Below are positions 30,397 to 63,025 of a DNA stretch of 64,000 bases, one piece after another. Location: contig JALQTW010000001.1 of NCBI GenBank assembly GCA_023263945.1, positions 117,741-181,740 of the forward strand, given 5' to 3'. Position 1 is the stretch's first letter; every line of letters begins with the position of its first letter. The notes beneath the pieces were generated by a model. The model was not told where the DNA came from. It saw only the letters and a list, made by a program, of their open reading frames with translations, and did not search any database. The stretch comes from Patescibacteria group bacterium. GTDB lineage: Bacteria; Patescibacteriota; Gracilibacteria; Peribacterales; Peribacteraceae. A program made the position numbers and the translations under genes.

Positions 30397-30403
30397 TATT
30401 AAT

Positions 30404-30432
30404 ATTTAACATTAAAAATAATAAAATGTCAA
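30404..30432 (-). promoter_or_regulatory. candidate leaderless promoter (TTGACA-17-TTAAAT-7 nt-ATG)
   Basis: Read on the minus strand: -35 at 30427-30432, -10 at 30404-30409, ATG at 30396. Confidence 0.5.
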
Positions 30433-30455
30433 TATACCTGTATACTTGCATTATT

Positions 30456-31196
30456 ATGCCTCTAAAGCAGGATACATTAAAGCAGTTCGTCAAGGCAGGG
30501 GAACAGAAAACAGTGTTTCTTTTGCTTGATGAAGCGTCCTCGAGGGAATGTGTTTTCATTTTGGAAGATCATGCGGATATTCATGTGGTTGTTCTCGCGC
30601 AGGGATCTGGATCGTTCTCGTATCGGTCGAGCCTTGCAGATCATGCTCATATTCATTGGCACATCATCACAAAAGGATCGAACGATGCACATCATGAACT
30701 TATTTCCGAATGCACAGGTGATGATGCTGTGAGCACAGTCGACTGGATTTTTCTTGCGAAGAAGGAAGAAAAAATGGACATCAGTGTGAAGAATGTCTTT
30801 TTAGGAAAACGTGGAGGAGGAGAAGTGACTATCAAAGGAATTGCGCAGGAGAAGGGGAATGTACGAGCGTATGGCTTGATCGATATTGGGCCACAAGGGG
30901 GTGGAACGAATACATACCTTACAGAAGATGTGTTGATGCTGGATCCCACCGCAAAAGTGGATGCCATTCCCGCACTGGAAATTAAAACGAATGATGTGAA
31001 AGCGAGTCACAGTGCAACGGTAAGTAGAGTGACGGAGGAGGATTTGTTTTATTTTGCTGCACGAGGTATTGCAGAAAAACAAGCACGGAGAATGTACGTG
31101 GATGGTTTTTTAAGCGATCTTCTTATCAAGATTCCCACTCCTGCATTTCAGGAGAAAGTAGCGATTGCCCTTCAGCAGAACACAACGTTCCATTAA
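30456..31196 (+). CDS. sufD: SufD/SufB-family Fe-S assembly protein (short, SufD-like)
   Basis: The internal ATG at 30456 gives MPLKQDTLKQF.... The C-terminal block DAIPALEIKTNDVKASHSATVSRVTEEDLFYFAARGIAEKQARRMYVDGF is typical of SufB/D. TATACT lies 9 nt before the ATG. Confidence 0.7.
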   Translation: MPLKQDTLKQFVKAGEQKTVFLLLDEASSRECVFILEDHADIHVVVLAQGSGSFSYRSSLADHAHIHWHIITKGSNDAHHELISECTGDDAVSTVDWIFLAKKEEKMDISVKNVFLGKRGGGEVTIKGIAQEKGNVRAYGLIDIGPQGGGTNTYLTEDVLMLDPTAKVDAIPALEIKTNDVKASHSATVSRVTEEDLFYFAARGIAEKQARRMYVDGFLSDLLIKIPTPAFQEKVAIALQQNTTFH

Positions 31197-31774: not shown

Positions 31775-33242
<1,468 letters not shown>

Positions 33243-33537: not shown

Positions 33538-33566
33538 ATCTTAATAAGGGGAGGGAGCAGCGTCAA
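33538..33566 (-). promoter_or_regulatory. candidate 16S rRNA promoter (TTGACG-17-TAAGAT)
   Basis: Read on the minus strand: -35 at 33561-33566 and -10 at 33538-33543, upstream of the processing-stem 5' half. Confidence 0.4.
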
Positions 33567-46454: not shown

Positions 46455-47714
46455 TCAATCCAGTAAGTGGAGTAATGCTTCCTTTTTCTCTTCTTTTCCA
46501 ATCACGGCAAGGCGCAGGTTGCTTGTGATGAGGAGTTTTCGTGCCAGTGCATTCACTTGATCCAGCGTCACATCGTCAATCGCTTTCATGTAATCTGGAA
46601 TATCCCGCACTTTGGGGTAGAGCAGTTGTTGTTTCCCATAGAAATGAGCACGCTCTTCGGAATCTTCCAGGGAGAGTGTTACTTTTCCTTTCAAGAAATC
46701 CTTCGCACGTTTCAGTTCATCTTTTGTAATGCCATCTTTCGCACACACGTCGTACTCATGGCGAATCAGGCTAATCGCTTCATGCAGACGGCTTGTATCT
46801 ACTCCTGCACGGGTCGAGAGAATGCCGACGTCCATGTAGTTATCCGTTGATGTCGAAATGTAATAGCACATGCCTTTTGCCTCGCGGATGTTGAGGAACA
46901 TGCGGGAACTCATGGAGCCACCAAGAACAGCCGCCAAAATCTTCTGCGCAAAGTGATCTGGATCTTGCGAGGAGACTCCCTGCACTCCCAGTACAAGGTG
47001 TGCCTGCTCGGTTGGCTTTGTTCTTAGGAAGAGCCTTTCTGTAGGGCAGGCGCCAAGAGGTTGCCATTCGCGTGCTTTCTTGCCACCCACAGAGCCAAAA
47101 TACGTCTCTGCAAGTTTCATGCCATCTTTCTCTGTAATGTTTCCTGCAAAGGTCACCACTAAGTTATCTGGTGTATAGAACGAATTCTTATGCCGCATGA
47201 AATCCTTCTGATTTACGGAACGAATGACGTCTTCTGTTCCAATGGTGTCCCAGCCAAGCGGCTGATCTCCAAAAAGAAGCTGCTCGAAGTCCCATCCTGT
47301 CTGATACATGGGTGTATCCTGATACATCCTGTACTCCTCAATAATCACACCACGTTCTTTCTCAATTTCTTCTTGTGGGAATGTTGCATGAATCAACATG
47401 TCTGAAAGAACATCGCAGGCAAGCTCTGTGTGTGTTGCTTCTACCTTCACATAATACCCCGCATATTCTTTGCCTGTGAATGCATTGAAGTCTCCGCCTA
47501 TGGCATCAATGGCCATGCTAACCTGCGCAGCAGATGTGTATTTCTTTCCCCCCTTGAAGAACATGTGTTCTAGGAAGTGACTGATGCCGCGCTCAGCGTT
47601 CACTTCGTAGCGCGAACCGGCACCGGCAAACACGAGCACCGTGACAGCAGCGGTTCCTTGAACGGGAGCTATCAGAACAGGAAGACCAGAAGGGAGACGA
47701 TTGAGGGTGAACAT
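46455..47714 (-). CDS. M16-family (pitrilysin/insulinase-like) zinc peptidase
   Basis: The internal ATG at 47714 gives MFTLNRLPSGLPVLIA.... It has the HFLEHMFFKG (HxxEH) motif. The longer track ORF would read through palindromic repeats. Confidence 0.8.
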   Translation of the reverse strand: MFTLNRLPSGLPVLIAPVQGTAAVTVLVFAGAGSRYEVNAERGISHFLEHMFFKGGKKYTSAAQVSMAIDAIGGDFNAFTGKEYAGYYVKVEATHTELACDVLSDMLIHATFPQEEIEKERGVIIEEYRMYQDTPMYQTGWDFEQLLFGDQPLGWDTIGTEDVIRSVNQKDFMRHKNSFYTPDNLVVTFAGNITEKDGMKLAETYFGSVGGKKAREWQPLGACPTERLFLRTKPTEQAHLVLGVQGVSSQDPDHFAQKILAAVLGGSMSSRMFLNIREAKGMCYYISTSTDNYMDVGILSTRAGVDTSRLHEAISLIRHEYDVCAKDGITKDELKRAKDFLKGKVTLSLEDSEERAHFYGKQQLLYPKVRDIPDYMKAIDDVTLDQVNALARKLLITSNLRLAVIGKEEKKEALLHLLD

Positions 47715-47722
47715 CGGGGGGA

Positions 47723-47751
47723 AGTCTAAGGCGGAACATGCCAAATACCAA
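47723..47751 (-). promoter_or_regulatory. candidate leaderless promoter (TTGGTA-17-TAGACT-8 nt-ATG)
   Basis: Read on the minus strand: -35 at 47746-47751 (inside the CCAAATACCAAA word), -10 at 47723-47728, ATG at 47714. Confidence 0.45.
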
Positions 47752-47773
47752 ATTCTAAATTCCAAACGGGAGG

Positions 47774-47823
47774 TAGCGGCAGCTCCGGAGCTGCCGCTAG
47801 CAGCGAGCCATGGCTCGCTGCTA
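47774..47823. repeat. two abutting perfect 26-nt palindromes
   Basis: TAGCGGCAGCTCCGGAGCTGCCGCTA (47774-47799) and TAGCAGCGAGCCATGGCTCGCTGCTA (47798-47823). They share the central TA, and each is its own reverse complement. Confidence 0.9.
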
Positions 47824-47831
47824 CAAAGATA

Positions 47832-47860
47832 TTGGCAACCTATCATCTCTCCTCTACAAT
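47832..47860 (+). promoter_or_regulatory. candidate leaderless promoter of rpmH (TTGGCA-17-TACAAT-9 nt-ATG)
   Basis: -35 at 47832-47837, -10 at 47855-47860, ATG at 47870. Confidence 0.5.
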
Positions 47861-47869
47861 GCCGCGGTC

Positions 47870-48013
47870 ATGTTAGGAAAGACACGTTGGCGTCGGCGTC
47901 TCCGCAGGCACGGATTCCTTGCTCGGAGCAAAAGTAAAACAGGTCGCAAAGTCCTGAAACGTCGTCGTGCACAGGGGAGGAAAAGAATCGCGGTGCAGAA
48001 GAAATTGAAATAG
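47870..48013 (+). CDS. rpmH: 50S ribosomal protein L34
   Basis: The internal ATG at 47870 gives MLGKTRWRRRLRRHGFLARSKSKTGRKVLKRRRAQGRKRIAV... Confidence 0.85.
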   Translation: MLGKTRWRRRLRRHGFLARSKSKTGRKVLKRRRAQGRKRIAVQKKLK

Positions 48014-48940: not shown

Positions 48941-51294
48941 GCGTTTTTGAGCAGAGCCACTATTTTACCATGAACGGGGCTCACATCACTCTCGGTCAAT
49001 GTTCTGTCTGGTGCACGGTACGTAAACCGCAGTGTGATGCGCTCATCGTTTCCTTTCTTATAGAGATCGACCGTCTGAATATCTTCCAGAAGTGCATCCA
49101 CTCCCCGTAGTTTCTTGAGAAGTTCCTTCATCGCACTCTTCTTCGTGAGCGCGATAGTTTCATCGTACGAAATGGCCGGGAAGGGAGGAACTGTTTTCGT
49201 CACTTTTGTAGTAGGTTCCCTTTGAAGAAGAAGATCCACATTCAATGTTGCCGCTGCAATAGGGTAAGTGAATCCAAATGCAGCTTGAATGGAAGGATGA
49301 AGTGTGCCGATAGTTCCTACTTTTGTTCCCTGAACAAGAACATCGGCTCGTTGCCCTGGATGAAGTTGTGCATCGCCCTTCTTCAACTGTTGGAGCTCTG
49401 CGGAATGTCCGGCCGCGTTCAGCGCTCGAATGAGATCTTGTTTGAGGAGGAGGAAAGGATGATTCAGAAGTCCCGGTTCGTTTTTACTTGCAAGTACAAG
49501 CGTGAGCGCAAATCTCTCCGGAGAACCTGCTTCAAACACATTTCCCATTTCAAATCCCCGAAGCGCATTCGACGCTGCCGGAAGCTCGCGGCTCAGAACA
49601 TCCAGAAGAGAAGGGAGAAGACTTGGATGCATGAGAGAGAGTTCTTCTCCAAGAGGATTCTGAATGGCGATGCAGCTTGCAGGATCAAACCCCGCTTTTG
49701 TGAGGAGTTCAGGACTGCTAAACGCAAGATTCACAAACTCGATCCATCCATCTTCTTTGAGGGCAGATCGCACATCGGCAATACGAGGATCTCGCACGGG
49801 TGGTTCCAGTCTTGCTGCAGGCATGTCTGCCTTGATGGCGTTGTACCCCACCATGCGTGCAATCTCTTCCACAATATCAGCAGGTTGCGTGAGGTCATGC
49901 TGCCTCCAGAGAGGAGGTTTGATGGAAAGTTTTTTCGTTCCTGTCACTGCGCACCCAACATCTTTCAAAATTTGGATAATCTTTTTGGAAGGAATCTCCT
50001 GTCCGATCATTCGATCGATAAAAGATTGCTCGACGGTGATGGTCTTCGGTTTTCCGTTTGTTCCCCATGTTTCCAATTTCGATGTGATCGTCGCTCCCGG
50101 TAATAGTGTCAGGAAAAGATCCAAAGCCCTGTAAAAGCCCTGTTCACAGGTGACTGGTGCAATATCTTTCTCATAGACCGTTGCGGCATCGGTCCTGTGG
50201 CCCGTTGCAATGATCGCCTTACGAATACTGGCACCGTGAACAACAGCACTGTGGAGAAAGACTGTTCGGGTTGAATCCTTTGTGCCACTTCGCAGTCCCC
50301 CCATGATGCCAAGGAGATCGAAAATACCTTCATCATCGCTTATCACCACAGCACCTTCGGATAGAACTCGTTCAACACCATCAAGTGTGATAATTTTCTC
50401 GCCCTCTTCTGCTATACGCATGGTGATGTTTCCCTGAAAATCAGCAGGATCAAAACTGTGGAGCGGCATTCCTTGTTCGTACTGCACGTAATTTGTGATG
50501 TCGATTGGCAGATTGATCGATCTACACCCACATGCAGCAAGTCGTTCCCTCATCCACGCAGGTGTTTCCGACATGTCATCAAAAGAAATAGTGCATGCCA
50601 GGTAGCGTGGAATGAGTTTTGGAATGCGCGATGTTATTTTGAAGGGGAGAGCATTCTTGGGAAACGTTGGACGTTTTGCAGATTTTTCCTTCTTCCAGGT
50701 TGCAAGCCCCAGTGCAACACACTCGCGTGCCACACCAACATGCGAAAAGAGATCTGGTCGGTTCGTAATGGCGTGGTTATCAATATGGAAGACAACATCA
50801 TCCATGTTTAGTGCTTGTTTGAGAGAAGTACCTACTTTTAGATCCATCGAGGAGAGATCCACAATCGGTCGTTCTCCATCTTCTGGTTTTGGAGCGAACG
50901 GAAGTTCCAATTCTTCCGCGGCGCAAATCATTCCTTCACTCGCTTCCCCACGAATCTTCACAGGCTGTAGTTCCATCACTTCTCCGCCATGCCACTTCAC
51001 TGTTGCTCCACTGTGCGCAAAGGCAACAAGCATACCTTCATAAAGATTCGTTCCTCCGCAAACAACGCGCTTTGTTCCTTTATCAGTTTGCACATCAACG
51101 AGGGACAATTTGTCAGCATTCGGATGCTTCGCGATCTTCATGACTTTTCCTACAACACAGTGTTGTAAGAAGCGTCCCTGTAATTCTGTGTCATCCACCT
51201 CTCCCGTGCCTTTTGTCAGTGCATCAGCAATCTTCAGGGGATCATTCTCTTTCCAGGTGATGAAGTCGGAGAGCCAATTTCGGGAGATCTTCAT
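48937..51294 (-). CDS. pheT: phenylalanine--tRNA ligase beta subunit
   Basis: 785 aa. MKISRNWLSDFI..., with tRNA-binding, B3/B4, B5 and FDX-ACB-like regions. pheS is not adjacent. Confidence 0.9.
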   Translation of the reverse strand: MKISRNWLSDFITWKENDPLKIADALTKGTGEVDDTELQGRFLQHCVVGKVMKIAKHPNADKLSLVDVQTDKGTKRVVCGGTNLYEGMLVAFAHSGATVKWHGGEVMELQPVKIRGEASEGMICAAEELELPFAPKPEDGERPIVDLSSMDLKVGTSLKQALNMDDVVFHIDNHAITNRPDLFSHVGVARECVALGLATWKKEKSAKRPTFPKNALPFKITSRIPKLIPRYLACTISFDDMSETPAWMRERLAACGCRSINLPIDITNYVQYEQGMPLHSFDPADFQGNITMRIAEEGEKIITLDGVERVLSEGAVVISDDEGIFDLLGIMGGLRSGTKDSTRTVFLHSAVVHGASIRKAIIATGHRTDAATVYEKDIAPVTCEQGFYRALDLFLTLLPGATITSKLETWGTNGKPKTITVEQSFIDRMIGQEIPSKKIIQILKDVGCAVTGTKKLSIKPPLWRQHDLTQPADIVEEIARMVGYNAIKADMPAARLEPPVRDPRIADVRSALKEDGWIEFVNLAFSSPELLTKAGFDPASCIAIQNPLGEELSLMHPSLLPSLLDVLSRELPAASNALRGFEMGNVFEAGSPERFALTLVLASKNEPGLLNHPFLLLKQDLIRALNAAGHSAELQQLKKGDAQLHPGQRADVLVQGTKVGTIGTLHPSIQAAFGFTYPIAAATLNVDLLLQREPTTKVTKTVPPFPAISYDETIALTKKSAMKELLKKLRGVDALLEDIQTVDLYKKGNDERITLRFTYRAPDRTLTESDVSPVHGKIVALLKNA

Positions 51295-51340
51295 GAGGGT
51301 AGGGTAGCGGGAGGAGGCAATGGAGGGTAGAGGGATCTCT

Positions 51341-51417: not shown

Positions 51418-51842
51418 TACTCCTTTATCTCAAACTGCAATGCACGTGCATCCCCATTCGTTTCGTCACCCACTTTCACCACCATCATGTACTGGCCTAC
51501 CGGCCAGTCAGACTCTTTATTTAGCTCAAACTTTGCGAGATCTAAATTGGGACTTGCCGTCACGGAATACGATGTGAAGTAATTTTTATCGTCTCCAAAT
51601 TTCCAGAAAGCAACAACGGGCACTTCCCCTTTTACATTCTCGATCTGTGCATTGAAGACGATGTGCCTATCGGAAGGCTTAAAGACCAACGCGGAGTTTT
51701 TAATCTGATCATGTTCATCGCGCTCAAGACCTGCGCTCAGTGTTCCTACCGTTGTCTCCGGCGCATCCTTCACCTGCCCAGAAACAGATGCCTGACAGGC
51801 GGTGAGGAAGAGGAGAGTCGATGCAAGAATGAGTTTCTTCAT
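51417..51842 (-). CDS. hypothetical lipoprotein
   Basis: 141 aa. MKKLILASTLLFLTAC has a lipobox (LTAC). No family recognised. Confidence 0.65.
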   Translation of the reverse strand: MKKLILASTLLFLTACQASVSGQVKDAPETTVGTLSAGLERDEHDQIKNSALVFKPSDRHIVFNAQIENVKGEVPVVAFWKFGDDKNYFTSYSVTASPNLDLAKFELNKESDWPVGQYMMVVKVGDETNGDARALQFEIKE

Positions 51843-51870
51843 GCAATAAGGATATAACAGGTGATTGATG

Positions 51871-52458: not shown

Positions 52459-52668
52459 TTACACCGGCTTTCCCTCACTCATCCTCTTTGCCAATGTCCT
52501 CAAGTACGCTGTCGAAACCTTCATTGTTTTGTACGTTCCTGTTTGAGGGTCAAATACGCGCTTCTTCTGAATATTTGCACGGAAGACACGGCGTGTTGCG
52601 CGCAGCGAGTGGCTGCGGCGGTTTCCGCTGGAGTTTCCTTTGCCGGTCTTTTCACAACGATGAGCCAT
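52459..52668 (-). CDS. rpmB: 50S ribosomal protein L28
   Basis: 69 aa. MAHRCEKTGKGNSSGNRRSHSLRATRRVFRANIQKKR. Confidence 0.85.
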   Translation of the reverse strand: MAHRCEKTGKGNSSGNRRSHSLRATRRVFRANIQKKRVFDPQTGTYKTMKVSTAYLRTLAKRMSEGKPV

Positions 52669-52677
52669 TGGGAGGGT

Positions 52678-52706
52678 ACTCTAGCGAGGAAATAAGAGGG
52701 GGTCAA
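52678..52706 (-). promoter_or_regulatory. candidate leaderless promoter of rpmB (TTGACC-17-TAGAGT-9 nt-ATG)
   Basis: Read on the minus strand: -35 at 52701-52706, -10 at 52678-52683, ATG at 52668. Confidence 0.45.
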
Positions 52707-53495: not shown

Positions 53496-53852
53496 CTAAG
53501 GAAATAACAATGTATTCACTTTTTCTTGCAGATCATCAATTTTTTTTGCTGCCTGAGAATCATTATCTCTGATGTATAAAATACAAGCACATTCCATAAT
53601 TGTATTCAGTGTACCTAACACATCGTGACGAACGAGTGAGGCGCGAACTTCGTCACTGACAGATGTAATTTTCGTTAACGCAATCGCGCGACAAAACGTA
53701 TCAAGAACTTCGCCATTCTGACTCAAACGAAACGGTTCATTATTATGAGCAATGCATTCTTCATCCATAGCGTCGAGAATTTCTCGAGCTTCTTGCTCGG
53801 ATTCTATAGCCTTACTGAGTAGCTCGTGAAAGGAGGTAGGGCCATTTGCCAT
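53496..53852 (-). CDS. hypothetical protein (118 aa, helical)
   Basis: A clean ORF with lower GC. No family recognised. Confidence 0.4.
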   Translation of the reverse strand: MANGPTSFHELLSKAIESEQEAREILDAMDEECIAHNNEPFRLSQNGEVLDTFCRAIALTKITSVSDEVRASLVRHDVLGTLNTIMECACILYIRDNDSQAAKKIDDLQEKVNTLLFP

Positions 53853-54008
53853 AATATATACATTTTAAACATATTTTGATTTTTAATCAATGGAGCCGCT
53901 GAAACTAGAAAAGTCCATTGCAACAAGTTTATGCTGCATAGCAGTAAGCTCTCTAGTTTGCTCCCAAGATGCATGCTCAAAGTGCTCAACTCAATAGAGT
54001 GGAAATGA

Positions 54009-54752: not shown

Positions 54753-55149
54753 ACAGCATCTCCGTCCAACTTCTTTCCTTCTCGCCCCCTCCCTTCCGTA
54801 CAGCATTCTTCACGGTGTGCAGTGCAAGGAGGGCACACTTGATGCGGCGTGGGCCAACAGGGACACCAAGAAGATCATGCATGAATTTCGGTTCCAATTG
54901 ATCAATCTCTTCAAGTTTTTTACCAATCAATTCTTCGCTGATCATCGACATCCCTGCTTGACTGATGGCACACCCTTCACCGCTCCAGCCAATTTGTTCA
55001 ACCTTTCCATTATTGATGATTAATTGAACAGTCAATTCATCACCGCAACTGGGGTTTTTCTCTTTATGTTCAATGGTGGGATTTTCAAGAGATGTCTTTC
55101 CACGTGGGTGCCTGTAATGGTCCAGAATATTTTCGGCGTAGAGATCCAT
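54748..55149 (-). CDS. sufU: SufU/IscU-type Fe-S cluster scaffold
   Basis: The internal ATG at 55149 gives MDLYAENILDHYRHPRGK ... NPSCGDELTV ... GEGCAISQA ... RIKCALLAL. Confidence 0.85.
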   Translation of the reverse strand: MDLYAENILDHYRHPRGKTSLENPTIEHKEKNPSCGDELTVQLIINNGKVEQIGWSGEGCAISQAGMSMISEELIGKKLEEIDQLEPKFMHDLLGVPVGPRRIKCALLALHTVKNAVRKGGGEKERSWTEMLS

Positions 55150-55371
55150 AAAAGGTATAGAATAGTAGCATGCAACCCGTCGATAAAGTACGGGACACAG
55201 ATGCAAACATGGCCCGGTGGCTTGTGAGTATTTGGGATGTTTATCGCTACTCATCACATGTCATTGGCACCAGAAATGCACTTCGGGGATTGTTTCTCTC
55301 TTCCCTACAAGACAAAAGAGGCATTTTATCTGAAGAGATGTATGACAGGTTATATCTGTTTGCGCAGGCCT

Positions 55372-56613
55372 TTATGCAGATCTTGCAGCAGAATGAGAGC
55401 CATCAAGTTGATGAATACTCTCCTCAAACAATTTCGCAAACTGATCCAATTCCTCAGCAGAATTATACACACCCACAGACAACCGAGACGACGCTAGAAC
55501 CCCCAGACGCTTGTGCAGCGGTTGCGTGCAGTGATGTCCCGCCCGAAGCATCACTCCTTCCTGACTTAGGAGTTGTGTCAGATCATGTGGGTGAATGCCA
55601 TCGAGCGTAAAGCTGATACAGCTGACTTTTTGAAAGGGATTGAGAGCACCGAGGATTGTGACAGGTTTCACGGTAGCACGTTGCAGGATATCGAGGATGT
55701 GAGTCAGGAGTGATTGTTCATGTTTTTGAATTTCATCGAATCCGATTTGTTCGATCCATTCCATCGCCGTACGCAATCCCACTGCTTCGGCAATGGCAGG
55801 AGTTCCTGCTTCAAATTTTCGTGGAAGTTCCGCTGTCGTAAAGTGATTGGTTGTTACTTCTCCAATCATGTCGCCACCACCTAAGAAAGGAGGCATTTTT
55901 TCGAGAAGATTTTCTTTTCCGTATAACACTCCAATTCCTGTAGGGCCATACATTTTATGACTGGAGAAAGCCAAGAAATCACAGTCAAGCTTTTGTACAT
56001 CCATGCGTTCATGTAGAGCCATCTGTGCAGCGTCAATCATGATCACAGCACCTTTTGTATGTGCGAGTTCGATCATCGTTTCGATGGGTGATCGAATGCC
56101 AAGAACGTTGCTTACAGCAGATACACTCACGAGTTTTACAGGATGATCGGCAAGAATTTTTTTGTATTGATCGAGATCGATCATTCCATCGTTGTTGATA
56201 TCAACCCACTCAATTCTTACACCAAGTTCATCTTTCAGCTGCAACCATGGAACAATGTTGGAGTGATGCTCCAGAATCGTCAGAACAATGACATCATCTT
56301 TTTTCAGGATCGATCGTCCATATGTTTTTGCAACAAGGTTGATGCTCTCGGTCGTATTCCTTGTGAAAATAACTTCATGAGATTTTTGTGCGTTGATGAA
56401 TTTCTGCACGACCTTCCGCGCATCGTCATATGCAAGAGTCGCGGCCTCTGCCAGTTTGTGCACGCCTCGATTAATATTTGCATTCGATGTTTTGTAAAAC
56501 TGGTCCATTGCATCCAGTACAACCTGTGGTTTCTGTGTGGTTGCGGCGTTATCCAGATAGATAAGATTAGGTTGAAGTAACGGAAACTGCCTACGAATGG
56601 AGTTAATATCCAT
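55372..56613 (-). CDS. sufS: cysteine desulfurase, SufS type (class V aminotransferase)
   Basis: The internal ATG at 56613 gives MDINSIRRQFPLL...IYLDNAATTQKP. Motifs: SSHKMYGPTGIGVLYG (PLP Lys) and RAGHHCTQP (catalytic Cys). Confidence 0.9.
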   Translation of the reverse strand: MDINSIRRQFPLLQPNLIYLDNAATTQKPQVVLDAMDQFYKTSNANINRGVHKLAEAATLAYDDARKVVQKFINAQKSHEVIFTRNTTESINLVAKTYGRSILKKDDVIVLTILEHHSNIVPWLQLKDELGVRIEWVDINNDGMIDLDQYKKILADHPVKLVSVSAVSNVLGIRSPIETMIELAHTKGAVIMIDAAQMALHERMDVQKLDCDFLAFSSHKMYGPTGIGVLYGKENLLEKMPPFLGGGDMIGEVTTNHFTTAELPRKFEAGTPAIAEAVGLRTAMEWIEQIGFDEIQKHEQSLLTHILDILQRATVKPVTILGALNPFQKVSCISFTLDGIHPHDLTQLLSQEGVMLRAGHHCTQPLHKRLGVLASSRLSVGVYNSAEELDQFAKLFEESIHQLDGSHSAARSA

Positions 56614-56622
56614 TGAGAGGAG

Positions 56623-56650
56623 ATTATAAATGCCAAAGGCCAAATACCAA
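56623..56650 (-). promoter_or_regulatory. candidate leaderless promoter of sufS (TTGGTA-16-TATAAT-9 nt-ATG)
   Basis: Read on the minus strand: -35 at 56645-56650 (inside the CCAAATACCAAA word), -10 at 56623-56628, ATG at 56613. Confidence 0.5.
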
Positions 56651-56734
56651 ATGTCAAACAATAGGAAACAAATGACAATTTGCTCTTAATCTTTAAGTGT
56701 TGTTTGGCCCTTGTCCTTTGGCATTTGGCATTTT
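56628..56734. repeat. quasi-palindrome filling the divergent spacer between sufS and the GT-C membrane protein gene
   Basis: AAATGCCAAAGGCCAAATACCAAATGTCAAACAA (56628-56661) and TGTTTGGCCCTTGTCCTTTGGCATTTGGCATTTT (56701-56734) pair at about 24/33 positions. The 14-mer GCCAAATACCAAAT also occurs at 47740-47753. Confidence 0.7.
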
Positions 56735-56757
56735 CATCCTGTATCCTCAGGACCTCT

Positions 56758-59622
56758 ATGACCGATTCGACTATCAGACGCCTGAGCATGGTGCTCTTCG
56801 GCCTCACCTTGGTGTGGGGCCTTGGGACGTTCATTATCTATTTGGGCGTTCCCGTGCATGGGCTTGTCTATATGACAGATGCACAAAATCAGGCGGTGCT
56901 GCAGGCTTGTCCTGGGGACGGAGCAACGTTGGGAAATCAATTGTGCAGAGGAATTGAGCTTCTCTTCCCTTTTATTGGTCGTCTCTTTGCAACGTCTCAA
57001 CCTCTGTGGGGATACGTCATTATCTCGCTTCTTGCGTATGGCATCTTCCTCCTTGTTCGTGCATTTAAGACAGGACGTTTTGTCATCGAAACAGTGATCA
57101 CACCACTGCACCTCGTTGGAGGATTTGTTCTCTCTATTTGGCTCTTTGGAACGGTGTTGTCATTTGGCTCTCTCTATCGAGATCTCGATGGAGCTCCCTT
57201 CCGTCGCTTCTATGAACCGACGCCGCAGGTTTACAGTTCTGCAGGCGAAGAGGCGCTGAAGGAATTGCAGGACAACTATCAATCACTACTCAATCGCGGT
57301 TGCCTGAGCGAGTTCGCAATGACGAATAATGGAGCGAAAGTGTACAACTTAAGTCCTTTTTGTATTCAGGGGGCGATGTTCGTTCGTGTTGGAACGCAAC
57401 TTGCACTCATCTTCCTCCTCTTCTTTAACTTTCTCATTGCAGGTCGGCTTGTTCTTCGCCTTCTCACCAAAAAGGGAGGGGAAGAATTTTCTCCACTTCT
57501 GGAATGCGTGTTCAGTTTGAGTTTGGGGTCGTTGGTATGGGTTATTGCTTTGTGGGTTCTGGCTGCATTGGGACTGCTTCATGCTCCCATTGAGCTTGCA
57601 CTGTTCTTTGGACTTCCGCTTGTTGCCTTTCCGCAGAGTTTGTATTGGCTCAAAAGCAGCGTACAGAGAAAAATCTACGTTGATGAATCCACGGGCCATC
57701 TCATGTGGCTTCTTGTGTGGCTTCTCATCAGTTACCTTGCACTGAACTTCCTGAACGTAGTGCGTCCTTTCCCCATCGGCTGGGATGATCTTGGAAGTTA
57801 TTTGAATCGTCCCCATCTTCTTGCAAGTTACGGGTCGTTCATTCCGTCCATGCCCACCTTCCAATGGGAGTATCTGGCGGCAATGGCATATTCCATGTTT
57901 GGCCTTGAGAGTATCGCAGGATCTACCTTCGCCATGATCATCAACTGGTCGGCAGGATTCCTCTCTGTTCTTGCTGCATACGCGTTTGGTCGTGTGTTCT
58001 TTGGTCAGAAAGGGGGAATTCTTGCTGCTATTCTGTATTACTTCCTGCCGATGACAGGGCATTTTTCGTTTGCGGATATGAAGATTGATAACGCGTCTTT
58101 CTTCACGTCTGCCCTGAGTGCGCTCGCTGTGTTTATCTATCTCTTTGGAACACCGGGACTGGAATCTCAAGAACATCTAAAAGGTAAAAAAATACTTCTC
58201 CTTCTGGGAGGAGCACTTGCTGCATTTGCATTCGCCATTAAACCGACAAGCGTTCTTATGATTCTCCTCCTCCTTTCTGTTCTCACAGGAAGTGCGATGG
58301 GGGCGTTTGGATTTGCTGCTGTTGCAGTCGCTTCATTTGTTGTCATGACAGCGTTCACACCGTTTAGCATCAATGATATTGCAGAAAAATTGGGAATGCC
58401 TCTCGCAGCGGATCCTGTCTTTGTGCGGCATGTAGCCATGCTTGTTTTTGGTGTCATCGCGCTCATTCTGGGAGCCTTTTCTCTGCGCAAACATCACCAT
58501 CATTGGAAGGCTGCTGTTCTATCCATCCTTTTCTTTGCCATAGGAATGGGTGCTGCGGCGCTTCCATGGATGGCACATAACGCGTGGAGTTATGGGTACA
58601 TCAGAGTCTCCTCCCTTATCAGTTATAAAAACACGCTCTCTCCGTACATGACATTCCTTCAGAAAGAGGACGTGCCGGAAGATCTTGGACTTCCTGAAAG
58701 CAAGATCCATTACCTCCCTCCAGAGCTCAAATTGAACCCTGAAGATCCCGCCTGCAAAACCTCTGCAAAAGTAGAAGAGCTGGATCGCTACTGGGGTTTT
58801 GGAACAGGGTGGAAGCATTACCTCACTCTTCCATGGAGAGCGGTCATGAATAGTGATGCCGTTGGGTACTACGTTACCCTTATGCCAGCATTGCTGCTTC
58901 TTCCGCTTCTTTTGTTGCTTCCATACTTCTGGTCCAGAGAAGGGAGGTGGCTTCGGTTCCTCTTTGCAGGATCATTCGTGTTTCTCATTCAGTGGATTTT
59001 CGTTGCAAACGGCATCATCTGGTATGGGCTTGGCATGTTCCTGGGTTTCTCCATCGCATTGGAAGCACTTGTGCGCAAAGCCCCCGATCCTCCCAATCGC
59101 ATTCTTGCGGGAGTGCTCATCACGCTCTCCATCCTTGTCTGTCTGGCAAACCGCATGTGGCAGTTTGATGTGCAAAAGAATCTCTTTGAGTATCCACTAG
59201 GGAAGGTGAGTGCAAGTGGCATTCGTGAAGTAACCATTCCTCTCTATGACAATATTCGCGATAGCGTTGTCTCACGTCATGAATCCATGCCAGAGCGCCC
59301 CTACACATACCGCATGGGGACCTTCATTCCGTACTTCATTCCAAAAAATGCAGAAATCTTCCCCATTGCGGATAATCAGTTGCAGTTCTTCAACTGTATC
59401 GATCAAGAGAGAGACCACGCGCTTACCCTCAAGCGTCTGCAGGCTCTTGGTTTCAACAGCATGATTTTCGATACGAATACGGCCACCATCGAAAAGGATG
59501 AAAACGGAACACTCCACCAGAAAGTGAATGCATTCCTGAGCTTTGCAAACGACCCTTCCCTGGGTCTCACGCGTGTATACAGTGAACCGGAACTAGGCAT
59601 TGCGTACCTGCTTCTTCCGTAA
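56758..59622 (+). CDS. large polytopic membrane protein, probable GT-C-fold glycosyltransferase (PMT/ArnT-like)
   Basis: 954 aa from the ATG at 56758, with more than 15 predicted TM helices interrupted by loops and a soluble C-terminal domain of about 120 aa. It lies immediately upstream of a GT2 polyprenyl-phosphate sugar synthase-like gene. The family call is by architecture, not by a motif I can name. Confidence 0.5.
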   Translation: MTDSTIRRLSMVLFGLTLVWGLGTFIIYLGVPVHGLVYMTDAQNQAVLQACPGDGATLGNQLCRGIELLFPFIGRLFATSQPLWGYVIISLLAYGIFLLVRAFKTGRFVIETVITPLHLVGGFVLSIWLFGTVLSFGSLYRDLDGAPFRRFYEPTPQVYSSAGEEALKELQDNYQSLLNRGCLSEFAMTNNGAKVYNLSPFCIQGAMFVRVGTQLALIFLLFFNFLIAGRLVLRLLTKKGGEEFSPLLECVFSLSLGSLVWVIALWVLAALGLLHAPIELALFFGLPLVAFPQSLYWLKSSVQRKIYVDESTGHLMWLLVWLLISYLALNFLNVVRPFPIGWDDLGSYLNRPHLLASYGSFIPSMPTFQWEYLAAMAYSMFGLESIAGSTFAMIINWSAGFLSVLAAYAFGRVFFGQKGGILAAILYYFLPMTGHFSFADMKIDNASFFTSALSALAVFIYLFGTPGLESQEHLKGKKILLLLGGALAAFAFAIKPTSVLMILLLLSVLTGSAMGAFGFAAVAVASFVVMTAFTPFSINDIAEKLGMPLAADPVFVRHVAMLVFGVIALILGAFSLRKHHHHWKAAVLSILFFAIGMGAAALPWMAHNAWSYGYIRVSSLISYKNTLSPYMTFLQKEDVPEDLGLPESKIHYLPPELKLNPEDPACKTSAKVEELDRYWGFGTGWKHYLTLPWRAVMNSDAVGYYVTLMPALLLLPLLLLLPYFWSREGRWLRFLFAGSFVFLIQWIFVANGIIWYGLGMFLGFSIALEALVRKAPDPPNRILAGVLITLSILVCLANRMWQFDVQKNLFEYPLGKVSASGIREVTIPLYDNIRDSVVSRHESMPERPYTYRMGTFIPYFIPKNAEIFPIADNQLQFFNCIDQERDHALTLKRLQALGFNSMIFDTNTATIEKDENGTLHQKVNAFLSFANDPSLGLTRVYSEPELGIAYLLLP

Positions 59623-60679: not shown

Positions 60680-60738
60680 ACAATTCTTCCTTTCGCCGGT
60701 CTTTTCTGAGGCTCGTGGACCCGCTACGATACATCTTC

Positions 60739-61887
60739 ATGGACCACCTCACAAAAACTGCTTCCAGAGCTCTTGCTACGGGTAAGAAGATTCTTCTTGT
60801 AAGCCCGTACTGGCTGGAAGATCACCGCTGGATGATCAGCTCTGTGAAATTAAGCGAACTTTGGCAGAGAATGGGGTATTCGGTGACGGTAGTGTGTATG
60901 GGATCGAAAAATCATAGTGAGATGATGTCTGAAACGCTCACAGTGCATTATCGAAAAGATTTCTTTTTTCCAGATCCCTTGAATTACGGCATCGCATTCG
61001 GATTTTCTAAGTATGTAGAGAAAGTCGCACGAGAACTGCAGCCCGATCATGTGATCATCAACAAGGTCTTGTTTTGGTCTTCGCTCGCCATCTTCAGATT
61101 AAAGAAGATGGGTTATTCTGTGTTGCTCGTCACAGATGCACTTGTCGGCATCACGTGGAAACCACGTCATTGGTATTCGAAAGTTATCATGTCTCTTGGT
61201 GCATGGACAGTGGGGAAGAGGGTTCTCCGCGCAGCGTCCCGCATCGTCTTTTTTCATCCTCAGCCATTGGATGTTTTACAGAAGCTGATGATCGATCAGA
61301 AAAGTATTGTCATTCCTACAGGTATCGATCCATCCCTGTTTTCGACGGGTGATCGATCATCGATTCTTCGTATCACGTATGTCGGTCGTCTGGAATCTGT
61401 AAAAGGAGTGGATGATTTTTTGGCAGCAGCGAAGAATGTGAAGGAGAAACATCCCGAAATTGTCATCCAGGTGGTCGGTTGGTACAAAGATCGCCACGAT
61501 CTTGTAGAGAAATATCAATCTCTTGTGACGTTTACGGGTCTTTCGCGAGATATTCCTACGGTCCTCCGTGATACCGATATTTTTGTTCTCCCAAGTTACT
61601 CAGAAGGTCTCAGTAATGCGCTGATGGAAGCCATGGCGAGCAATTGTGCGTGCATAGCAACAGAAGTAGGAGGGAATACGTTTTTGATTGAAAACAATGT
61701 TTCAGGACTTCTCTTCAAGCCGGGGGATAGAACGACATTACAAAGTCATCTCGAAACATTGATCAATGACGTATCACTTCGTACAACACTCGGTGCCGCT
61801 GCGAGGACACGTATTGAAACAATTTTTTCATGGGAGCATGTCATGAAACACTACGCACAGATGTTCGAAACAATGAAGAGAGAATGA
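60739..61887 (+). CDS. GT4-family (group 1) glycosyltransferase
   Basis: ATG at 60739. C-terminal block: VGRLESVKGVDDF ... FVLPSYSEGLSNALMEAMASNCACIATEVGGN. Confidence 0.8.
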   Translation: MDHLTKTASRALATGKKILLVSPYWLEDHRWMISSVKLSELWQRMGYSVTVVCMGSKNHSEMMSETLTVHYRKDFFFPDPLNYGIAFGFSKYVEKVARELQPDHVIINKVLFWSSLAIFRLKKMGYSVLLVTDALVGITWKPRHWYSKVIMSLGAWTVGKRVLRAASRIVFFHPQPLDVLQKLMIDQKSIVIPTGIDPSLFSTGDRSSILRITYVGRLESVKGVDDFLAAAKNVKEKHPEIVIQVVGWYKDRHDLVEKYQSLVTFTGLSRDIPTVLRDTDIFVLPSYSEGLSNALMEAMASNCACIATEVGGNTFLIENNVSGLLFKPGDRTTLQSHLETLINDVSLRTTLGAAARTRIETIFSWEHVMKHYAQMFETMKRE

Positions 61888-61960
61888 TGAGAAATTTTTG
61901 ATCATCTTTTTCAATTCGATCAATCCATCATTTGTTGCTTCCGATGTATACTTTCTCTCC

Positions 61961-63025
61961 ATGAAGCAGAAGATTGTCATCGTTTCCGCGTTTTTGCGTC
62001 CTATGCGCAGCGGTGCCGAAGCAATGGTGGAAGAAGTATCGGTTCGTTTGCGTGATCGGTACGATATTGTCATTGTCACAGCGCGTATGAAGAGGAAACT
62101 TCCCAAGGAAGATCTTCTTGAAGGGACCGTTCGTGTTCGACGAATTGGCCTTGGATTTTCCTTTGATAAATGGCTCTTTCCCTTCCTTGCATTTTTCGCT
62201 GTACGAAGGGAAAAACCTGCTATTGTTCATGCCGTTCTGGAGTCCTTTGCGGGGTTCTCACTGGTCTTCCTGAAGCTCTTCTATCGCTCGCCAAAACGTC
62301 TGCTCACATTGCAAAGCACGAACACCACATTATTGTTACGGGCCATCCACCGGGCAGCAAATGCTATTACCGGTATCAGCTCGGTTCTTCTCCTTCGTGC
62401 ACGAAAATTTGGACGAGATGACGTGATCTACATTCCAAATGGGATCGATCTCCCCGCCATTGAAGAATCTCTCACCAAATTTCAGCGTATTCATGGTCGT
62501 ATTCTCTTTGTCGGTCGCTTGGAGCACGTGAAAGGAGTAGATGTTCTTCTCACAGCGTTTGCGGAATTAACAGATTCAGACCTCTCACTGACTATTGTCG
62601 GAGATGGAAGTGAACGGGAGAAGCTGGAGCAACTCGCGCAGGAACTCCGCATTGCAGATCGTGTGATGTTCCTTGGAAAACTGTTGCCTCTCAAAGTGTA
62701 TGACCAATACGCAAGCGCAGAACTCTTCATCGGCCTCTCCCGCAGTGAGGCGCTTGGAAACGTGTTTTTAGAGGCTCAGGCAGCCGGTTGCGCTGTGATT
62801 GCATCAAACGTGGGAGGTATTCCGGAAATTGTGAAAGATCAGGTCACGGGCATCCTCGTTCCACCGGATGATCCAGATAAAGCCGCCCAGGCAATCCATC
62901 AGCTTCTCATGAATATTTCGCTTCGTACGTCGCTTATTACAGAAGCACGTGAGCATGTGAAAAAATTTGATTGGGATTTGATCGCAGAGAGGTATGCGAA
63001 AGTGTATGAAGGGCTTATAGGATGA
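61961..63025 (+). CDS. GT4-family (group 1) glycosyltransferase
   Basis: ATG at 61961. VGRLEHVKGVDVL ... SEALGNVFLEAQAAGCAVIASNVGGIPEIV. Confidence 0.8.
   Translation: MKQKIVIVSAFLRPMRSGAEAMVEEVSVRLRDRYDIVIVTARMKRKLPKEDLLEGTVRVRRIGLGFSFDKWLFPFLAFFAVRREKPAIVHAVLESFAGFSLVFLKLFYRSPKRLLTLQSTNTTLLLRAIHRAANAITGISSVLLLRARKFGRDDVIYIPNGIDLPAIEESLTKFQRIHGRILFVGRLEHVKGVDVLLTAFAELTDSDLSLTIVGDGSEREKLEQLAQELRIADRVMFLGKLLPLKVYDQYASAELFIGLSRSEALGNVFLEAQAAGCAVIASNVGGIPEIVKDQVTGILVPPDDPDKAAQAIHQLLMNISLRTSLITEAREHVKKFDWDLIAERYAKVYEGLIG

What the first reader, a model, noticed from the sequence alone, without database searches (positions are those of the whole stretch)
47723..47872. Full promoters end 6-9 nt before start codons, pointing to widespread leaderless mRNAs
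Seven genes have both a good -35 and a good -10 at 16-17 nt spacing, with the -10 ending only 6-9 nt before the start codon:
- rpmH: TTGGCA-17-TACAAT-9-ATG at 47832-47872.
- M16 peptidase: TTGGTA-17-TAGACT-8-ATG at 47714-47751 (-).
- sufS: TTGGTA-16-TATAAT-9-ATG at 56613-56650 (-).
- VanW: TTGGCA-16-TACAAT-6-GTG at 42696-42730 (-).
- rpmB: TTGACC-17-TAGAGT-9-ATG at 52668-52706 (-).
- The 137-aa/pyrB unit: TTGACA-17-TTAAAT-7-ATG at 30396-30432 (-).
- The gene at 22902: TTGAAA-17-TAGAAT-6-ATG.

Three more have a -10-like hexamer at the same distance: sufD-like (TATACT-9), smpB (CATACT-7) and the gene at 44564 (TAGAAT-6). Transcription would start at or within about 3 nt of the start codon. Together with the altered anti-SD, this indicates that leaderless initiation is the default mode here.
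Basis: partly seen in the sequence, partly recalled or inferred. Interest (0 to 1): 0.65.

Follow-up and report, generated by a model that had tools for sequence, protein, structure and literature searches.

The report
Promoters abutting start codons: leaderless genes
In this uncultured groundwater-type bacterium (Peribacteria, candidate phyla radiation), about half of the transcription units have a promoter placed so close to the start codon that the mRNA can have almost no leader. No Shine-Dalgarno signal is used, which is a known way of starting translation but had not been described for this lineage in the papers I could search.

Summary

**Statistics**
- Of 56 curated genes, 23 have a TANNNT hexamer ending 6-9 nt before the start codon. 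Shuffled upstream regions give 6.2 +/- 2.2, with a maximum of 15 in 2000 shuffles.
- The hexamer marks first genes of transcription units (21 of 42), not operon-internal genes (2 of 14).
- It is accompanied by a -35 TTG seven times more often than gene-body TANNNT.

**Conservation**
- The window comes from a Peribacteria/Peregrinibacteria genome.
- In 12 syntenic gene families, 70 of 88 orthologues keep the hexamer 5-12 nt from a conserved N-terminus. A control placed 30 nt upstream gives 5 of 88.

**Translation signals**
- Shine-Dalgarno words are not enriched upstream of starts.
- The 16S anti-SD core reads UCUCC instead of CCUCC.

**Limits**
- Where the spacing is 9-12 nt, expect 2-6 nt mini-leaders rather than none.
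- About a quarter of first genes are clearly leadered.
- No 5' ends have been mapped.

**Verdict**
This is a new lineage for a known architecture (GeneMarkS-2 "group C"; Actinobacteria, Deinococcus).

The parts
47832..47872 (+). rpmH (L34) promoter plus start: TTGGCA-17-TACAAT-9-ATG
   Evidence: Pfam L34. 12 of 14 orthologues keep TANNNT 8-12 nt upstream, mostly 9, together with a TTGACN -35.
47712..47751 (-). M16 peptidase promoter plus start: TTGGTA-17-TAGACT-8-ATG
   Evidence: The start at 47714 is supported by the tblastn N-terminus, Pfam and the public gene call of 419 aa. 13 of 18 orthologues have TANNNT at 6-9 nt.
56611..56650 (-). sufS promoter plus start: TTGGTA-16-TATAAT-9-ATG (or TAATCT-7)
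   Evidence: Aminotran_5 residues 18-392 match profile positions 1-371. Public gene call of 413 aa.
56718..56760 (+). Promoter plus start of the 954-aa gene divergent from sufS: TTGGCA-18-TATCCT-10-ATG
   Evidence: Public gene call of 954 aa.
42694..42730 (-). vanW-like promoter plus start: TTGGCA-16-TACAAT-6-GTG
   Evidence: Pfam VanW. Orthologues show TATACT, TACACT, TACGAT or TACAAT at 6 nt.
52666..52706 (-). rpmB (L28) promoter plus start: TTGACC-17-TAGAGT-9-ATG
   Evidence: Pfam L28. 6 of 7 orthologues keep TTGAC-17-TANNNT at 8-11 nt.
22900..22937 (-). Promoter plus start of the 172-aa gene: TTGAAA-17-TAGAAT-6-ATG
22377..22414 (-). Promoter plus start of the next gene, lying inside the 3' end of the upstream gene: TTCACG-17-TACACT-6-GTG
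23313..23350 (-). Cytidylyltransferase-like gene: TATCCT-6-ATG
   Evidence: (Pfam residues 5-93 match profile positions 2-90).
25374..25415 (-). 676-aa gene: TTGCCG-17-TAGCGT-10-ATG
29980..30021 (-). pyrB: TCGACA-17-TACACT-10-ATG, a promoter of its own lying inside the upstream 137-aa ORF
   Evidence: Pfam OTCace_N residues 6-146 match profile positions 1-147.
30394..30432 (-). 137-aa ORF: TTGACA-17-TTAAAT-7-ATG. This is the weakest case: the -10 is non-consensus and the ORF is unsupported.
30441..30458 (+). sufD-like gene: TATACT-9-ATG, divergent from the 137-aa ORF across 59 nt
38559..38600 (-). PBP1A: TTGCAG-17-TACACT-9-ATG. The start lies 16 codons inside the longest ORF.
   Evidence: Orthologues L001 and L007 have the same layout.
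38603..38643 (+). Pilin-like 114-aa gene: CTGGCA-17-TAAGCT-9-ATG
39013..39031 (+). TPR gene: TATAGT-10-ATG
   Evidence: 6 of 6 orthologues.
39769..39783 (+). ftsX-like gene: TAAACT-6-ATG
   Evidence: 3 of 3 orthologues, at 7 nt.
43386..43400 (-). RNase H gene: TAAACT-6-ATG
   Evidence: 8 of 10 orthologues.
44562..44576 (-). DUF1858 gene: TAGAAT-6-ATG. Only 38 nt separate it from the divergent S41 peptidase start.
51292..51306 (-). pheT: TACCCT-6-ATG
   Evidence: 11 of 14 orthologues at 6-10 nt.
51840..51854 (-). 141-aa gene: TATCCT-6-ATG
53850..53890 (-). 118-aa gene: TTGATT-17-TAAAAT-9-ATG
55147..55164 (-). sufU/NifU_N gene: TATTCT-9-ATG
   Evidence: (133 aa, NifU_N).
60725..60741 (+). Glycosyltransferase gene: TACGAT-8-ATG
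   Evidence: (382 aa).
61947..61963 (+). Gene at 61961: TATACT-8-ATG
3891..3905 (-). Polyprenyl glycosylphosphotransferase gene: TGa-TACTAT-6-ATG (extended -10)
58..74 (+). DnaQ/DinG-like gene: TAGAAT-8-ATG
21141..21180 (-). smpB: TTAACA-18-CATACT-7-ATG (-10 with C at position 1)
3923..3957 (+). Control: RNase P RNA promoter TTGTCT-17-TATAAT, ending 5 nt before the RNA's modelled 5' end (3957)
33538..33566 (-). Control: 16S rRNA promoter TTGACG-17-TAAGAT
31775..31800 (-). 16S rRNA 3' end ...GGAUGGAACAUCUCCUUA. The anti-SD core reads UCUCC instead of CCUCC.
   Evidence: Among metagenomic 16S ends with the same helix-45 context, 19 of 31 share the variant.

Best explanation
The window is from a Peribacteria (Peregrinibacteria, candidate phyla radiation) genome. 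In it, sigma-70-type promoters (-35 TTGnnn, 16-18 nt spacer, -10 TAnnnT, consensus about TAnACT/TAnAAT) sit directly against the start codons of the first gene of most transcription units.

RNA polymerase normally starts 6-9 nt after the -10. A spacing of 6-8 nt therefore makes the A or G of the start codon the first transcribed base, giving a truly leaderless mRNA. A spacing of 9-12 nt gives a 2-6 nt mini-leader. Either way there is no room for a Shine-Dalgarno site.

The inferred translation mechanism is the one established for leaderless mRNAs elsewhere. A ribosome carrying initiator tRNA (a 70S ribosome, or a 30S subunit with IF2 and fMet-tRNA) recognises the 5'-terminal AUG or GUG directly.

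Downstream cistrons are packed at -4 to +4 nt from the preceding stop (ATGA overlaps), which fits termination-reinitiation coupling. A minority of first genes have G-poor, C/U-rich leaders without SD.

With SD pairing unused, the anti-SD is free to drift. In this sub-lineage it reads UCUCC, and no compensating GGAGA motif appears.

Shown: motif positions, statistics, conservation, absence of SD. Inferred: transcription start positions and the initiation mechanism.
For: (1) Position-specific enrichment. 23 of 56 curated starts have TANNNT at 6-9 nt, against 6.15 +/- 2.24 in shuffles. Longest-ORF starts show a peak at d=6 in the window. In 266 genes of 20 Peribacteria loci the peaks at d=6, 7 and 8 are 11.7%, 7.1% and 8.6%, against about 1.5% per position elsewhere upstream and 0.2-0.8% at internal start-like codons.

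(2) Promoter identity.
- A TTG at the -35 position accompanies 20% of start-proximal TANNNT against 2.9% of gene-body TANNNT.
- The anchored profile shows T at -35 in 57% against 16%, and interior -10 preferences of A and C.
- The best-scoring consensus promoters in the region, including four of the five with 10 of 12 matches, are those next to start codons.
- The same promoter type precedes RNase P RNA (ending 5 nt before its 5' end) and 16S rRNA.

(3) Restriction to first genes of units: 21 of 42 against 2 of 14 operon-internal genes.

(4) Conservation. 70 of 88 orthologues in 12 families keep the hexamer 5-12 nt from the conserved start, against 5 of 88 in the displaced control. The spacing is gene-specific: rpmH 9, rpmB 11, pheT 6-8.

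(5) Start codons were verified by Pfam coordinates, by N-terminal conservation, and by independent public gene calls.

(6) No SD. GGAG, GAGG, AGGA and GGAGA are not enriched and are often depleted. G makes up only 11-17% of the bases upstream. The same method recovers AGGA, GGAG and GAGG in other CPR loci, which serves as a positive control.

(7) The anti-SD core is UCUCC. It is a recurrent lineage variant, found in 19 of 31 metagenomic ends. Ca. Peribacter riflensis is listed in PMC10783764 as SD-scarce (7% SD) and lacking CCUCC.

(8) Divergent start codons lie only 38-155 nt apart, which leaves no room for conventional leaders.
Against: - No transcript 5' ends exist for this organism or its relatives, so the transcription start positions are predicted only.
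- Only about a fifth of the start-proximal -10 hexamers have a clear TTG at -35. Many rest on TANNNT alone, whose chance rate is not negligible: operon-internal genes score 33% in the loose any-candidate test.
- Spacings of 9-12 nt (rpmH, rpmB, sufS and others) are longer than the 6-8 nt seen in mycobacteria and imply short leaders. How well such 2-6 nt leaders are translated is unknown.
- The total number of promoter-like matches in the region is not above shuffles (17 against 21.5). The significance lies in their position, not their number.
- Curating starts involved some judgement.
Confidence: 0.8

Rival explanations
1. The promoters are real, but they give only minor transcripts. Most mRNA for these genes would come from other upstream promoters or from read-through, so translation is mainly from leadered mRNAs by an SD-independent route, such as unstructured C/U-rich leaders bound through ribosomal protein S1.
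For: Leadered, SD-less genes clearly exist in the same genome: ndk, rpsF, RNase J, S41 peptidase and the pseudopilin gene. So an SD-independent leadered route must operate. C/U-rich 4-mers are enriched upstream of starts that lack a nearby -10.
Against: Many units are divergent with 38-155 nt between start codons, leaving no room for a second upstream promoter. Conservation of the exact -10-to-ATG spacing across species argues that selection acts on that spacing.
Confidence: 0.1
2. The TANNNT hexamer is a non-Shine-Dalgarno translation signal on the mRNA, like the GeneMarkS-2 'group B' motif of Bacteroidetes, and not a promoter -10.
For: It lies where an RBS would lie, 6-12 nt upstream. SD is absent, so some other signal might be expected.
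Against: - A group B motif should precede operon-internal genes too. Here it does so for 2 of 14 against 21 of 42 first genes.
- A -35 TTG(A/G)C element co-occurs at 16-18 nt and is conserved for rpmH and rpmB.
- The invariant positions T1, A2 and T6 are those of the sigma-70 -10.
- The same motif precedes non-coding RNA genes.
Confidence: 0.05
3. The start codons are mis-assigned. The true starts would lie further downstream, or upstream, so the promoters give ordinary leadered mRNAs.
For: Several of these genes have longer possible ORFs (M16 +44 codons, sufS +16, vanW +27, PBP1A +16). Picking starts next to a -10 risks circular reasoning.
Against: - Orthologue N-termini align from exactly these codons.
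- Pfam profiles begin at the expected residue.
- Independent public gene calls give the same lengths.
- Unbiased longest-ORF starts already show the peak.
Confidence: 0.03
4. The pattern is a chance or compositional effect of A+T-rich, G-poor intergenic DNA.
For: TANNNT is a low-information motif. Upstream regions are G-poor.
Against: - Shuffling the same 40 nt upstream regions never reaches the observed count (maximum 15 against 23).
- The control displaced by 30 nt gives 5 of 88 against 70 of 88.
- The peak is sharp, at d=6-8, in a lineage with 55% G+C.
Confidence: 0.02

Closest known systems
Leaderless gene architecture of Actinobacteria (Mycobacterium tuberculosis, M. smegmatis, Streptomyces, Corynebacterium): GeneMarkS-2 'group C' (PMC6028130)
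   Same: A -10 Pribnow box (TANNNT) is localised 6-8 nt upstream of the start codon of first genes in operons. ATG and GTG starts both serve as the first transcribed base. A large share of transcription units is affected (25-50% predicted for group C; about 50% here).
   Different: - In group C the remaining genes carry SD sites, and the anti-SD is canonical. Here no SD signal is detectable at all, and the anti-SD core is UCUCC.
- The spacing distribution is broader here (6-12 nt), with gene-specific conserved spacings of 9-11 nt at rpmH and rpmB.
- The lineage is a small-genome CPR bacterium with about 48% G+C, not a high-G+C Gram-positive.
Deinococcus deserti / Deinococcus-Thermus leaderless transcriptome (de Groot et al. 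2014, cited in PMC6028130)
   Same: A majority of mapped genes are leaderless (167 of 262 mapped genes in D. deserti, PMC6028130). In GeneMarkS-2 group C genomes, to which 37 of 38 Deinococcus-Thermus species belong, a -10-like Pribnow motif lies just upstream of the start codon.
   Different: In Deinococcus this was shown experimentally by RNA-seq and proteogenomics. Here it is inferred from sequence only. As far as I know, Deinococcus keeps a canonical anti-SD.
[quoted passage not shown]
   Same: Same lineage (Peribacteria), same lack of SD, and a non-canonical anti-SD.
   Different: That study classifies by 16S/mRNA pairing energy. It does not report promoters abutting start codons or leaderless transcription for Peribacteria. 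The present data supply the likely alternative initiation mode.
Flavobacteriia / Bacteroidetes non-SD initiation (GeneMarkS-2 'group B')
   Same: No SD usage, and in some Flavobacteriia an altered anti-SD.
   Different: Group B genomes have leadered mRNAs with an A-rich non-SD motif before all genes, including operon-internal ones. Here the motif is a promoter -10, it comes with a -35, and it is confined to first genes.
Archaeal leaderless transcription (Haloferax, Sulfolobus; GeneMarkS-2 'group D')
   Same: Leaderless mRNA is the majority mode for first cistrons, and short 5' UTRs of up to about 5 nt are treated as leaderless.
   Different: The archaeal TATA/BRE promoter lies about 26 nt upstream. 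Here the promoter is a bacterial sigma-70 type.

Membership tests
Bacterial genomes with prevalent leaderless transcription (GeneMarkS-2 group C) | A Pribnow (-10) motif localised about 6-10 nt upstream of the start codons of first genes in operons | tested here: met
   21 of 42 first genes at 5-9 nt, shuffle z of about 7.5, and a peak at d=6-8 in 266 genes of related genomes.
Bacterial genomes with prevalent leaderless transcription (GeneMarkS-2 group C) | The motif is absent upstream of operon-internal genes, so it is a promoter and not an RBS | tested here: met
   2 of 14 internal against 21 of 42 first genes. One search shows the same trend in the related loci.
Bacterial genomes with prevalent leaderless transcription (GeneMarkS-2 group C) | The motif is part of a sigma-70 promoter, with a -35 element 16-18 nt upstream | tested here: met
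   (20% against 2.9% with TTG). (T at -35 in 57% against 16%). (conserved TTGAC at rpmH and rpmB). Only a minority of sites have a strong -35.
Bacterial genomes with prevalent leaderless transcription (GeneMarkS-2 group C) | Primary transcript 5' ends coincide with the start codon (5' UTR of 0-5 nt) | not testable with these tools
   No transcriptome or TSS data for Peribacteria were found. The only CPR TSS set cited is for Nanosynbacter lyticus.
Bacterial genomes with prevalent leaderless transcription (GeneMarkS-2 group C) | The remaining (leadered or internal) genes use SD-type RBS | tested here: not met
   SD words are not enriched. C/U-rich 4-mers are enriched instead. This is a difference from typical group C genomes.
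SD-scarce organisms lacking CCUCC (class iv, PMC10783764) | The 16S 3' end lacks the CCUCC core | tested here: met
   ...GGAUGGAACAUCUCCUUA; the variant recurs in 19 of 31 related metagenomic 16S ends.
SD-scarce organisms lacking CCUCC (class iv, PMC10783764) | A low fraction of genes with SD-like sequence upstream | tested here: met
   GGAG 3.8%, GAGG 5.7%, AGGA 7.5% and GGAGA 0% of starts. These are at or below the rate at internal codons.
Non-SD RBS genomes (GeneMarkS-2 group B, Bacteroidetes-like) | The same non-SD motif at a short distance before all genes, including operon-internal ones, on leadered mRNAs | tested here: not met
   the motif is confined to first genes and is linked to a -35 element.

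The most novel reading that the evidence does not exclude
Peribacteria may have given up Shine-Dalgarno initiation altogether. In this reading:
- First cistrons are read from leaderless mRNAs, or from conserved 2-5 nt mini-leaders. The fixed 9-11 nt spacing at rpmH and rpmB suggests a selected short 5' tag.
- Downstream cistrons are read by stop/start coupling.
- The remaining genes are read through G-poor, C/U-rich leaders that act as a so far undescribed non-SD signal.

The anti-SD is caught in the act of decaying. Close relatives with the same helix-45 sequence carry either CCUCC or UCUCC. That would make the clade a natural experiment on which is lost first, SD use or the anti-SD.
Probability: 0.25. 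Interest if true: 0.65.

Novelty: new member of a known kind. Interest (0 to 1): 0.45.

Why it matters
**Gene prediction.** Gene finders that rely on RBS signals mis-place starts, or miss short genes, in such genomes. In the public calls for this same DNA, no gene of rpmH's or rpmB's size and position is listed, and ORFs of 103 and 95 aa are called on the opposite strand nearby. Knowing that Peribacteria are 'promoter-at-the-start-codon' genomes would improve annotation of thousands of CPR genomes assembled from metagenomes.

**Biology.**
- It extends prevalent leaderless initiation to a deep, uncultured, small-genome lineage.
- It links this to a drifting anti-SD. It supports the view that leaderless initiation is a widespread, possibly ancestral, mode.
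- It gives a practical rule for predicting promoters and operon boundaries in organisms that cannot be grown.

Tried and rejected
- **Compensating SD.** I looked for a GGAGA motif matching the altered anti-SD. It occurs upstream of 0% of starts, so this was rejected.
- **Excess of promoter-like matches.** I tested whether the sheer number of promoter-like matches is elevated. It is not: 17 against 21.5 in shuffles. Only their position relative to start codons is significant.
- **GeneMarkS-2 supplementary tables.** I tried to see how Peribacter is classified there. The supplements are not held.
- **Literature.** Searches combining 'leaderless' or 'Shine-Dalgarno' with Peregrinibacteria, Peribacteria, Patescibacteria or CPR found only the PLoS One 2024 listing of Ca. 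Peribacter riflensis as SD-scarce.
- **Canonical versus altered anti-SD in metagenomic 16S loci.**
  - TANNNT at 6-9 nt: 5 of 48 against 19 of 87.
  - SD-like words: 17 of 48 against 15 of 87.
  - The trend is in the expected direction. But the ORF sets are crude, include rRNA-internal ORFs and mixed lineages, and are too small, so I did not rely on it.
- **Pyrimidine-tract signal.** I tested whether it is sharply localised before start codons. It is only modest, and the coding strand is pyrimidine-rich in general.
- **The two 26-nt palindromes between rpmH and M16.** I looked for them in relatives and found none.
- **16S in the Peribacteria loci.** I looked for 16S genes there to compare anti-SD sequences and found none.
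Full report
**What the window is.** The 64-kb window has 45-50% G+C. It carries a 16S rRNA gene (31775-33242, minus strand), RNase P RNA and three tRNAs. The M16 peptidase encoded at 46455-47714 is at best 74% identical to proteins of uncultured Candidatus Peribacteria / Peregrinibacteria genomes. So the organism is an undescribed species of this candidate-phyla-radiation (CPR) lineage. The same DNA exists in an ENA metagenome assembly (ERZ27267552, contig k141_544088). Twenty Peribacteria loci (L001-L020) are syntenic with window positions of about 35.6-53.5 kb, which made a comparative test possible.

The start codons are the critical point, because several of these genes have longer possible ORFs. 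Three kinds of evidence support them.
- Pfam profile coordinates fit, for example Aminotran_5 residues 18-392 against profile positions 1-371, and OTCace_N 6-146 against 1-147.
- Orthologue N-termini align from exactly these codons.
- Independent public gene calls on the same DNA give identical lengths. Examples are M16 419 aa, SufS 413 aa and NifU 133 aa, plus unnamed products of 954, 118, 221 and 382 aa.

The weakest of the seven is the '137-aa/pyrB' case. TTAAAT lacks the A at position 2 of the -10. The ORF has no Pfam hit, no homologue in the loci, and only a faint coding signal. pyrB itself has its own TCGACA-17-TACACT-10-ATG.

**Is it more than chance?**
- With longest-ORF starts and no curation, TANNNT ending exactly 6 nt upstream occurs at 15% of genes, and a shoulder runs to 12 nt. 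Internal ATG/GTG/TTG codons show about 0.5% per position.
- I curated 56 genes from homology and context. Of these, 23 have TANNNT at 6-9 nt and 35 at 5-12 nt. Shuffling the same 40-nt upstream regions gives 6.15 +/- 2.24 (maximum 15 in 2000) and 11.4 +/- 2.9 (maximum 21).
- Anchoring on promoters instead, 9 of 53 TTGNNN-16..18-TANNNT matches have a start opening at least 100 codons 5-10 nt downstream, against 2.7 expected (P = 1.4e-3). This count excludes the short rpmH and rpmB.
- The number of promoter-like matches is not itself elevated. The signal lies in where they are.

**Are the hexamers promoters?** Four lines of evidence say yes.
- They mark first genes of transcription units (21 of 42 at 5-9 nt, a further 9 at 10-12 nt) and not operon-internal genes (2 of 14).
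- A TTG at 16-18 nt upstream accompanies 20% of them, against 2.9% of gene-body TANNNT.
- When sequences from the window and the Peribacteria loci are aligned on the hexamer alone, a -35 signal emerges. T is 57% at -35, against 16% in the control. The hexamer interior shows A (52%) then C/A (53%/38%), giving TAnACT/TAnAAT, followed by a C-rich discriminator.
- The same promoter type precedes RNA genes in the window. TTGACG-17-TAAGAT lies upstream of 16S rRNA. TTGTCT-17-TATAAT ends 5 nt before the modelled 5' end of RNase P RNA. The latter is an internal control showing that a promoter abutting its product is normal here.

**Conservation.**
- For 12 gene families predicted leaderless in the window, 70 of 88 Peribacteria orthologues have TANNNT 5-12 nt from the conserved start. 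The same test displaced 30 nt upstream gives 5 of 88.
- The flanks are not alignable, yet the spacing is gene-specific: rpmH mostly 9 nt, rpmB mostly 11, M16 6-9, pheT 6-8, RNase H 6-8. rpmH and rpmB also keep TTGAC at -35.
- Families predicted to be leadered behave differently (ndk and S41 peptidase: 5 of 24).
- Across all 266 genes called in L001-L020, 27% of longest-ORF starts have the hexamer at 6-8 nt. That is about six times the upstream background.
- A weaker peak is seen in other Peregrinibacteria and other CPR loci.

**No Shine-Dalgarno.**
- GGAG, GAGG, AGGA, AGGAG and GGAGA are not enriched between -20 and -3, and are often below the rate at internal codons. G drops to 11-17% upstream of starts.
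- In the same analysis the other-CPR loci yield AGGA, GGAG and GAGG as the top enriched 4-mers, so the method can detect SD where it exists. The Peribacteria set yields CCCC, TTCC, TCTC and TCCC instead.
- The 16S 3' end reads GGAUGGAACAUCUCCUUA. The core is UCUCC, where bacteria normally have CCUCC (the canonical sequence is from established knowledge).
- A metagenome scan found the same helix-45 context 31 times, 19 with CAUCUCC and 12 with CACCUCC. The change is therefore a lineage variant and not an error, and it is young.
- PMC10783764 lists Ca. [quoted passage not shown]

**How it most likely works.**
- *Shown.* Promoter motifs abut the start codons. There is no SD. Operon-internal genes are packed tightly: stop/start overlaps of the ATGA type or gaps of 0-4 nt at 60289, 59624, 48940, 40751, 16131, 17915, 14875 and 12606 (coordinates).
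- *Inferred for spacings of 6-8 nt.* RNA polymerase starts 6-9 nt after the -10. At these spacings the start-codon purine is the first transcribed base.
- *Inferred for spacings of 9-12 nt.* The mRNA would carry a 2-6 nt mini-leader.
- *Inferred for translation.* Ribosomes carrying initiator tRNA would bind the 5'-terminal AUG or GUG, as established for leaderless mRNAs in other bacteria and archaea.
- *Inferred for downstream cistrons.* They would be read by termination-reinitiation.
- *Exceptions.* About a quarter of first genes are leadered without SD:
  - ndk, 13-26 nt C/U-rich leaders across species
  - rpsF, 52 nt
  - RNase J, 48 nt
  - the pseudopilin gene, about 53 nt
  - S41 peptidase

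  A second SD-independent route must therefore also exist.

**Comparison with what is known.** The architecture is that of GeneMarkS-2 'group C' genomes (PMC6028130). There, a Pribnow box lies 6-8 nt from the start of first genes. The type is typical of Actinobacteria (90%) and Deinococcus-Thermus (97%), with 25-50% leaderless operons predicted. Here the share is at least as high.

It differs in three respects.
- The non-leaderless genes have no SD.
- The anti-SD is altered.
- The spacing range is broader.

It is not the Bacteroidetes-type 'group B' pattern, because the motif avoids operon-internal genes and comes with a -35.

I found no paper describing leaderless transcription or promoter placement in Peregrinibacteria or any CPR lineage. 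The paper on the complete Peribacteria genomes does not mention promoters or ribosome-binding sites.

**Verdict.** It adds a new lineage to a known kind of organisation, with a notable combination: a leaderless majority, no SD at all, and a drifting anti-SD. Interest is moderate. The decisive experiment is 5'-end mapping.

Noticed in passing
window 47774-47823: Two abutting perfect 26-nt palindromes lie midway between the divergent M16 and rpmH promoters: TAGCGGCAGCTCC|GGAGCTGCCGCTA and TAGCAGCGAGCCA|TGGCTCGCTGCTA. They are the only palindromes with arms of at least 10 nt in the window. As DNA hairpins they fold at -26.4 kcal/mol (z = -6). They are absent from the orthologous intergenic regions of relatives and occur only in this genome's own contig. 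Their function is unknown; an operator, a cruciform or a small inserted element are possibilities.
   Followed up: partly
window 31775-31800 (-) and loci L082-L112: The 16S anti-SD core is UCUCC instead of CCUCC. Among 31 metagenomic 16S 3' ends with an identical helix-45 context, 19 carry CAUCUCC and 12 carry CACCUCC. The change is therefore recent and polymorphic within the clade.
   Followed up: partly
window-wide, e.g. 4509-4535, 11382-11420, 46341-46366, 51295-51330, 60269-60288; also ndk orthologues in L001-L017: Sequences just upstream of start codons are G-poor and C/U-rich. CCCC, TTCC, TCTC and TCCC are 2-4 times enriched, including before leadered and operon-internal genes. These words resemble the anti-SD rather than its complement. 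The effect is modest, and it partly reflects a generally pyrimidine-rich coding strand.
   Followed up: partly
window 47870-48013 and 52459-52668; L081: The public gene calls for this DNA list no gene of rpmH's (47 aa) or rpmB's (69 aa) size and position, and call ORFs of 103 and 95 aa on the opposite strand nearby. This looks like a practical consequence of RBS-based gene finding in a genome without SD.
   Followed up: no
window 52004-52132 (-) and 3923-3957 (+): RNA genes also have promoters close to their 5' ends. tRNA-Ser has TTGGGT-17-TAAGTT ending 10 nt before the tRNA. RNase P RNA has TTGTCT-17-TATAAT ending 5 nt before the modelled 5' end.
   Followed up: partly
L012 around 9860-10000 (rpmH-M16 intergenic region): A relative carries a different large inverted repeat, made of short tandem units (agtactagagtactggattactgg... 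and its complement), in the same intergenic position. This spacer seems prone to acquiring palindromic sequence.
   Followed up: no
loci L021-L056 (other Peregrinibacteria): TAAC is 7-fold enriched, and TTAA, CTAA and TAAT about 3-fold, within 20 nt upstream of starts that lack a nearby -10. This is probably the TAA stop codon of closely packed upstream genes, but a non-SD motif was not excluded.
   Followed up: no
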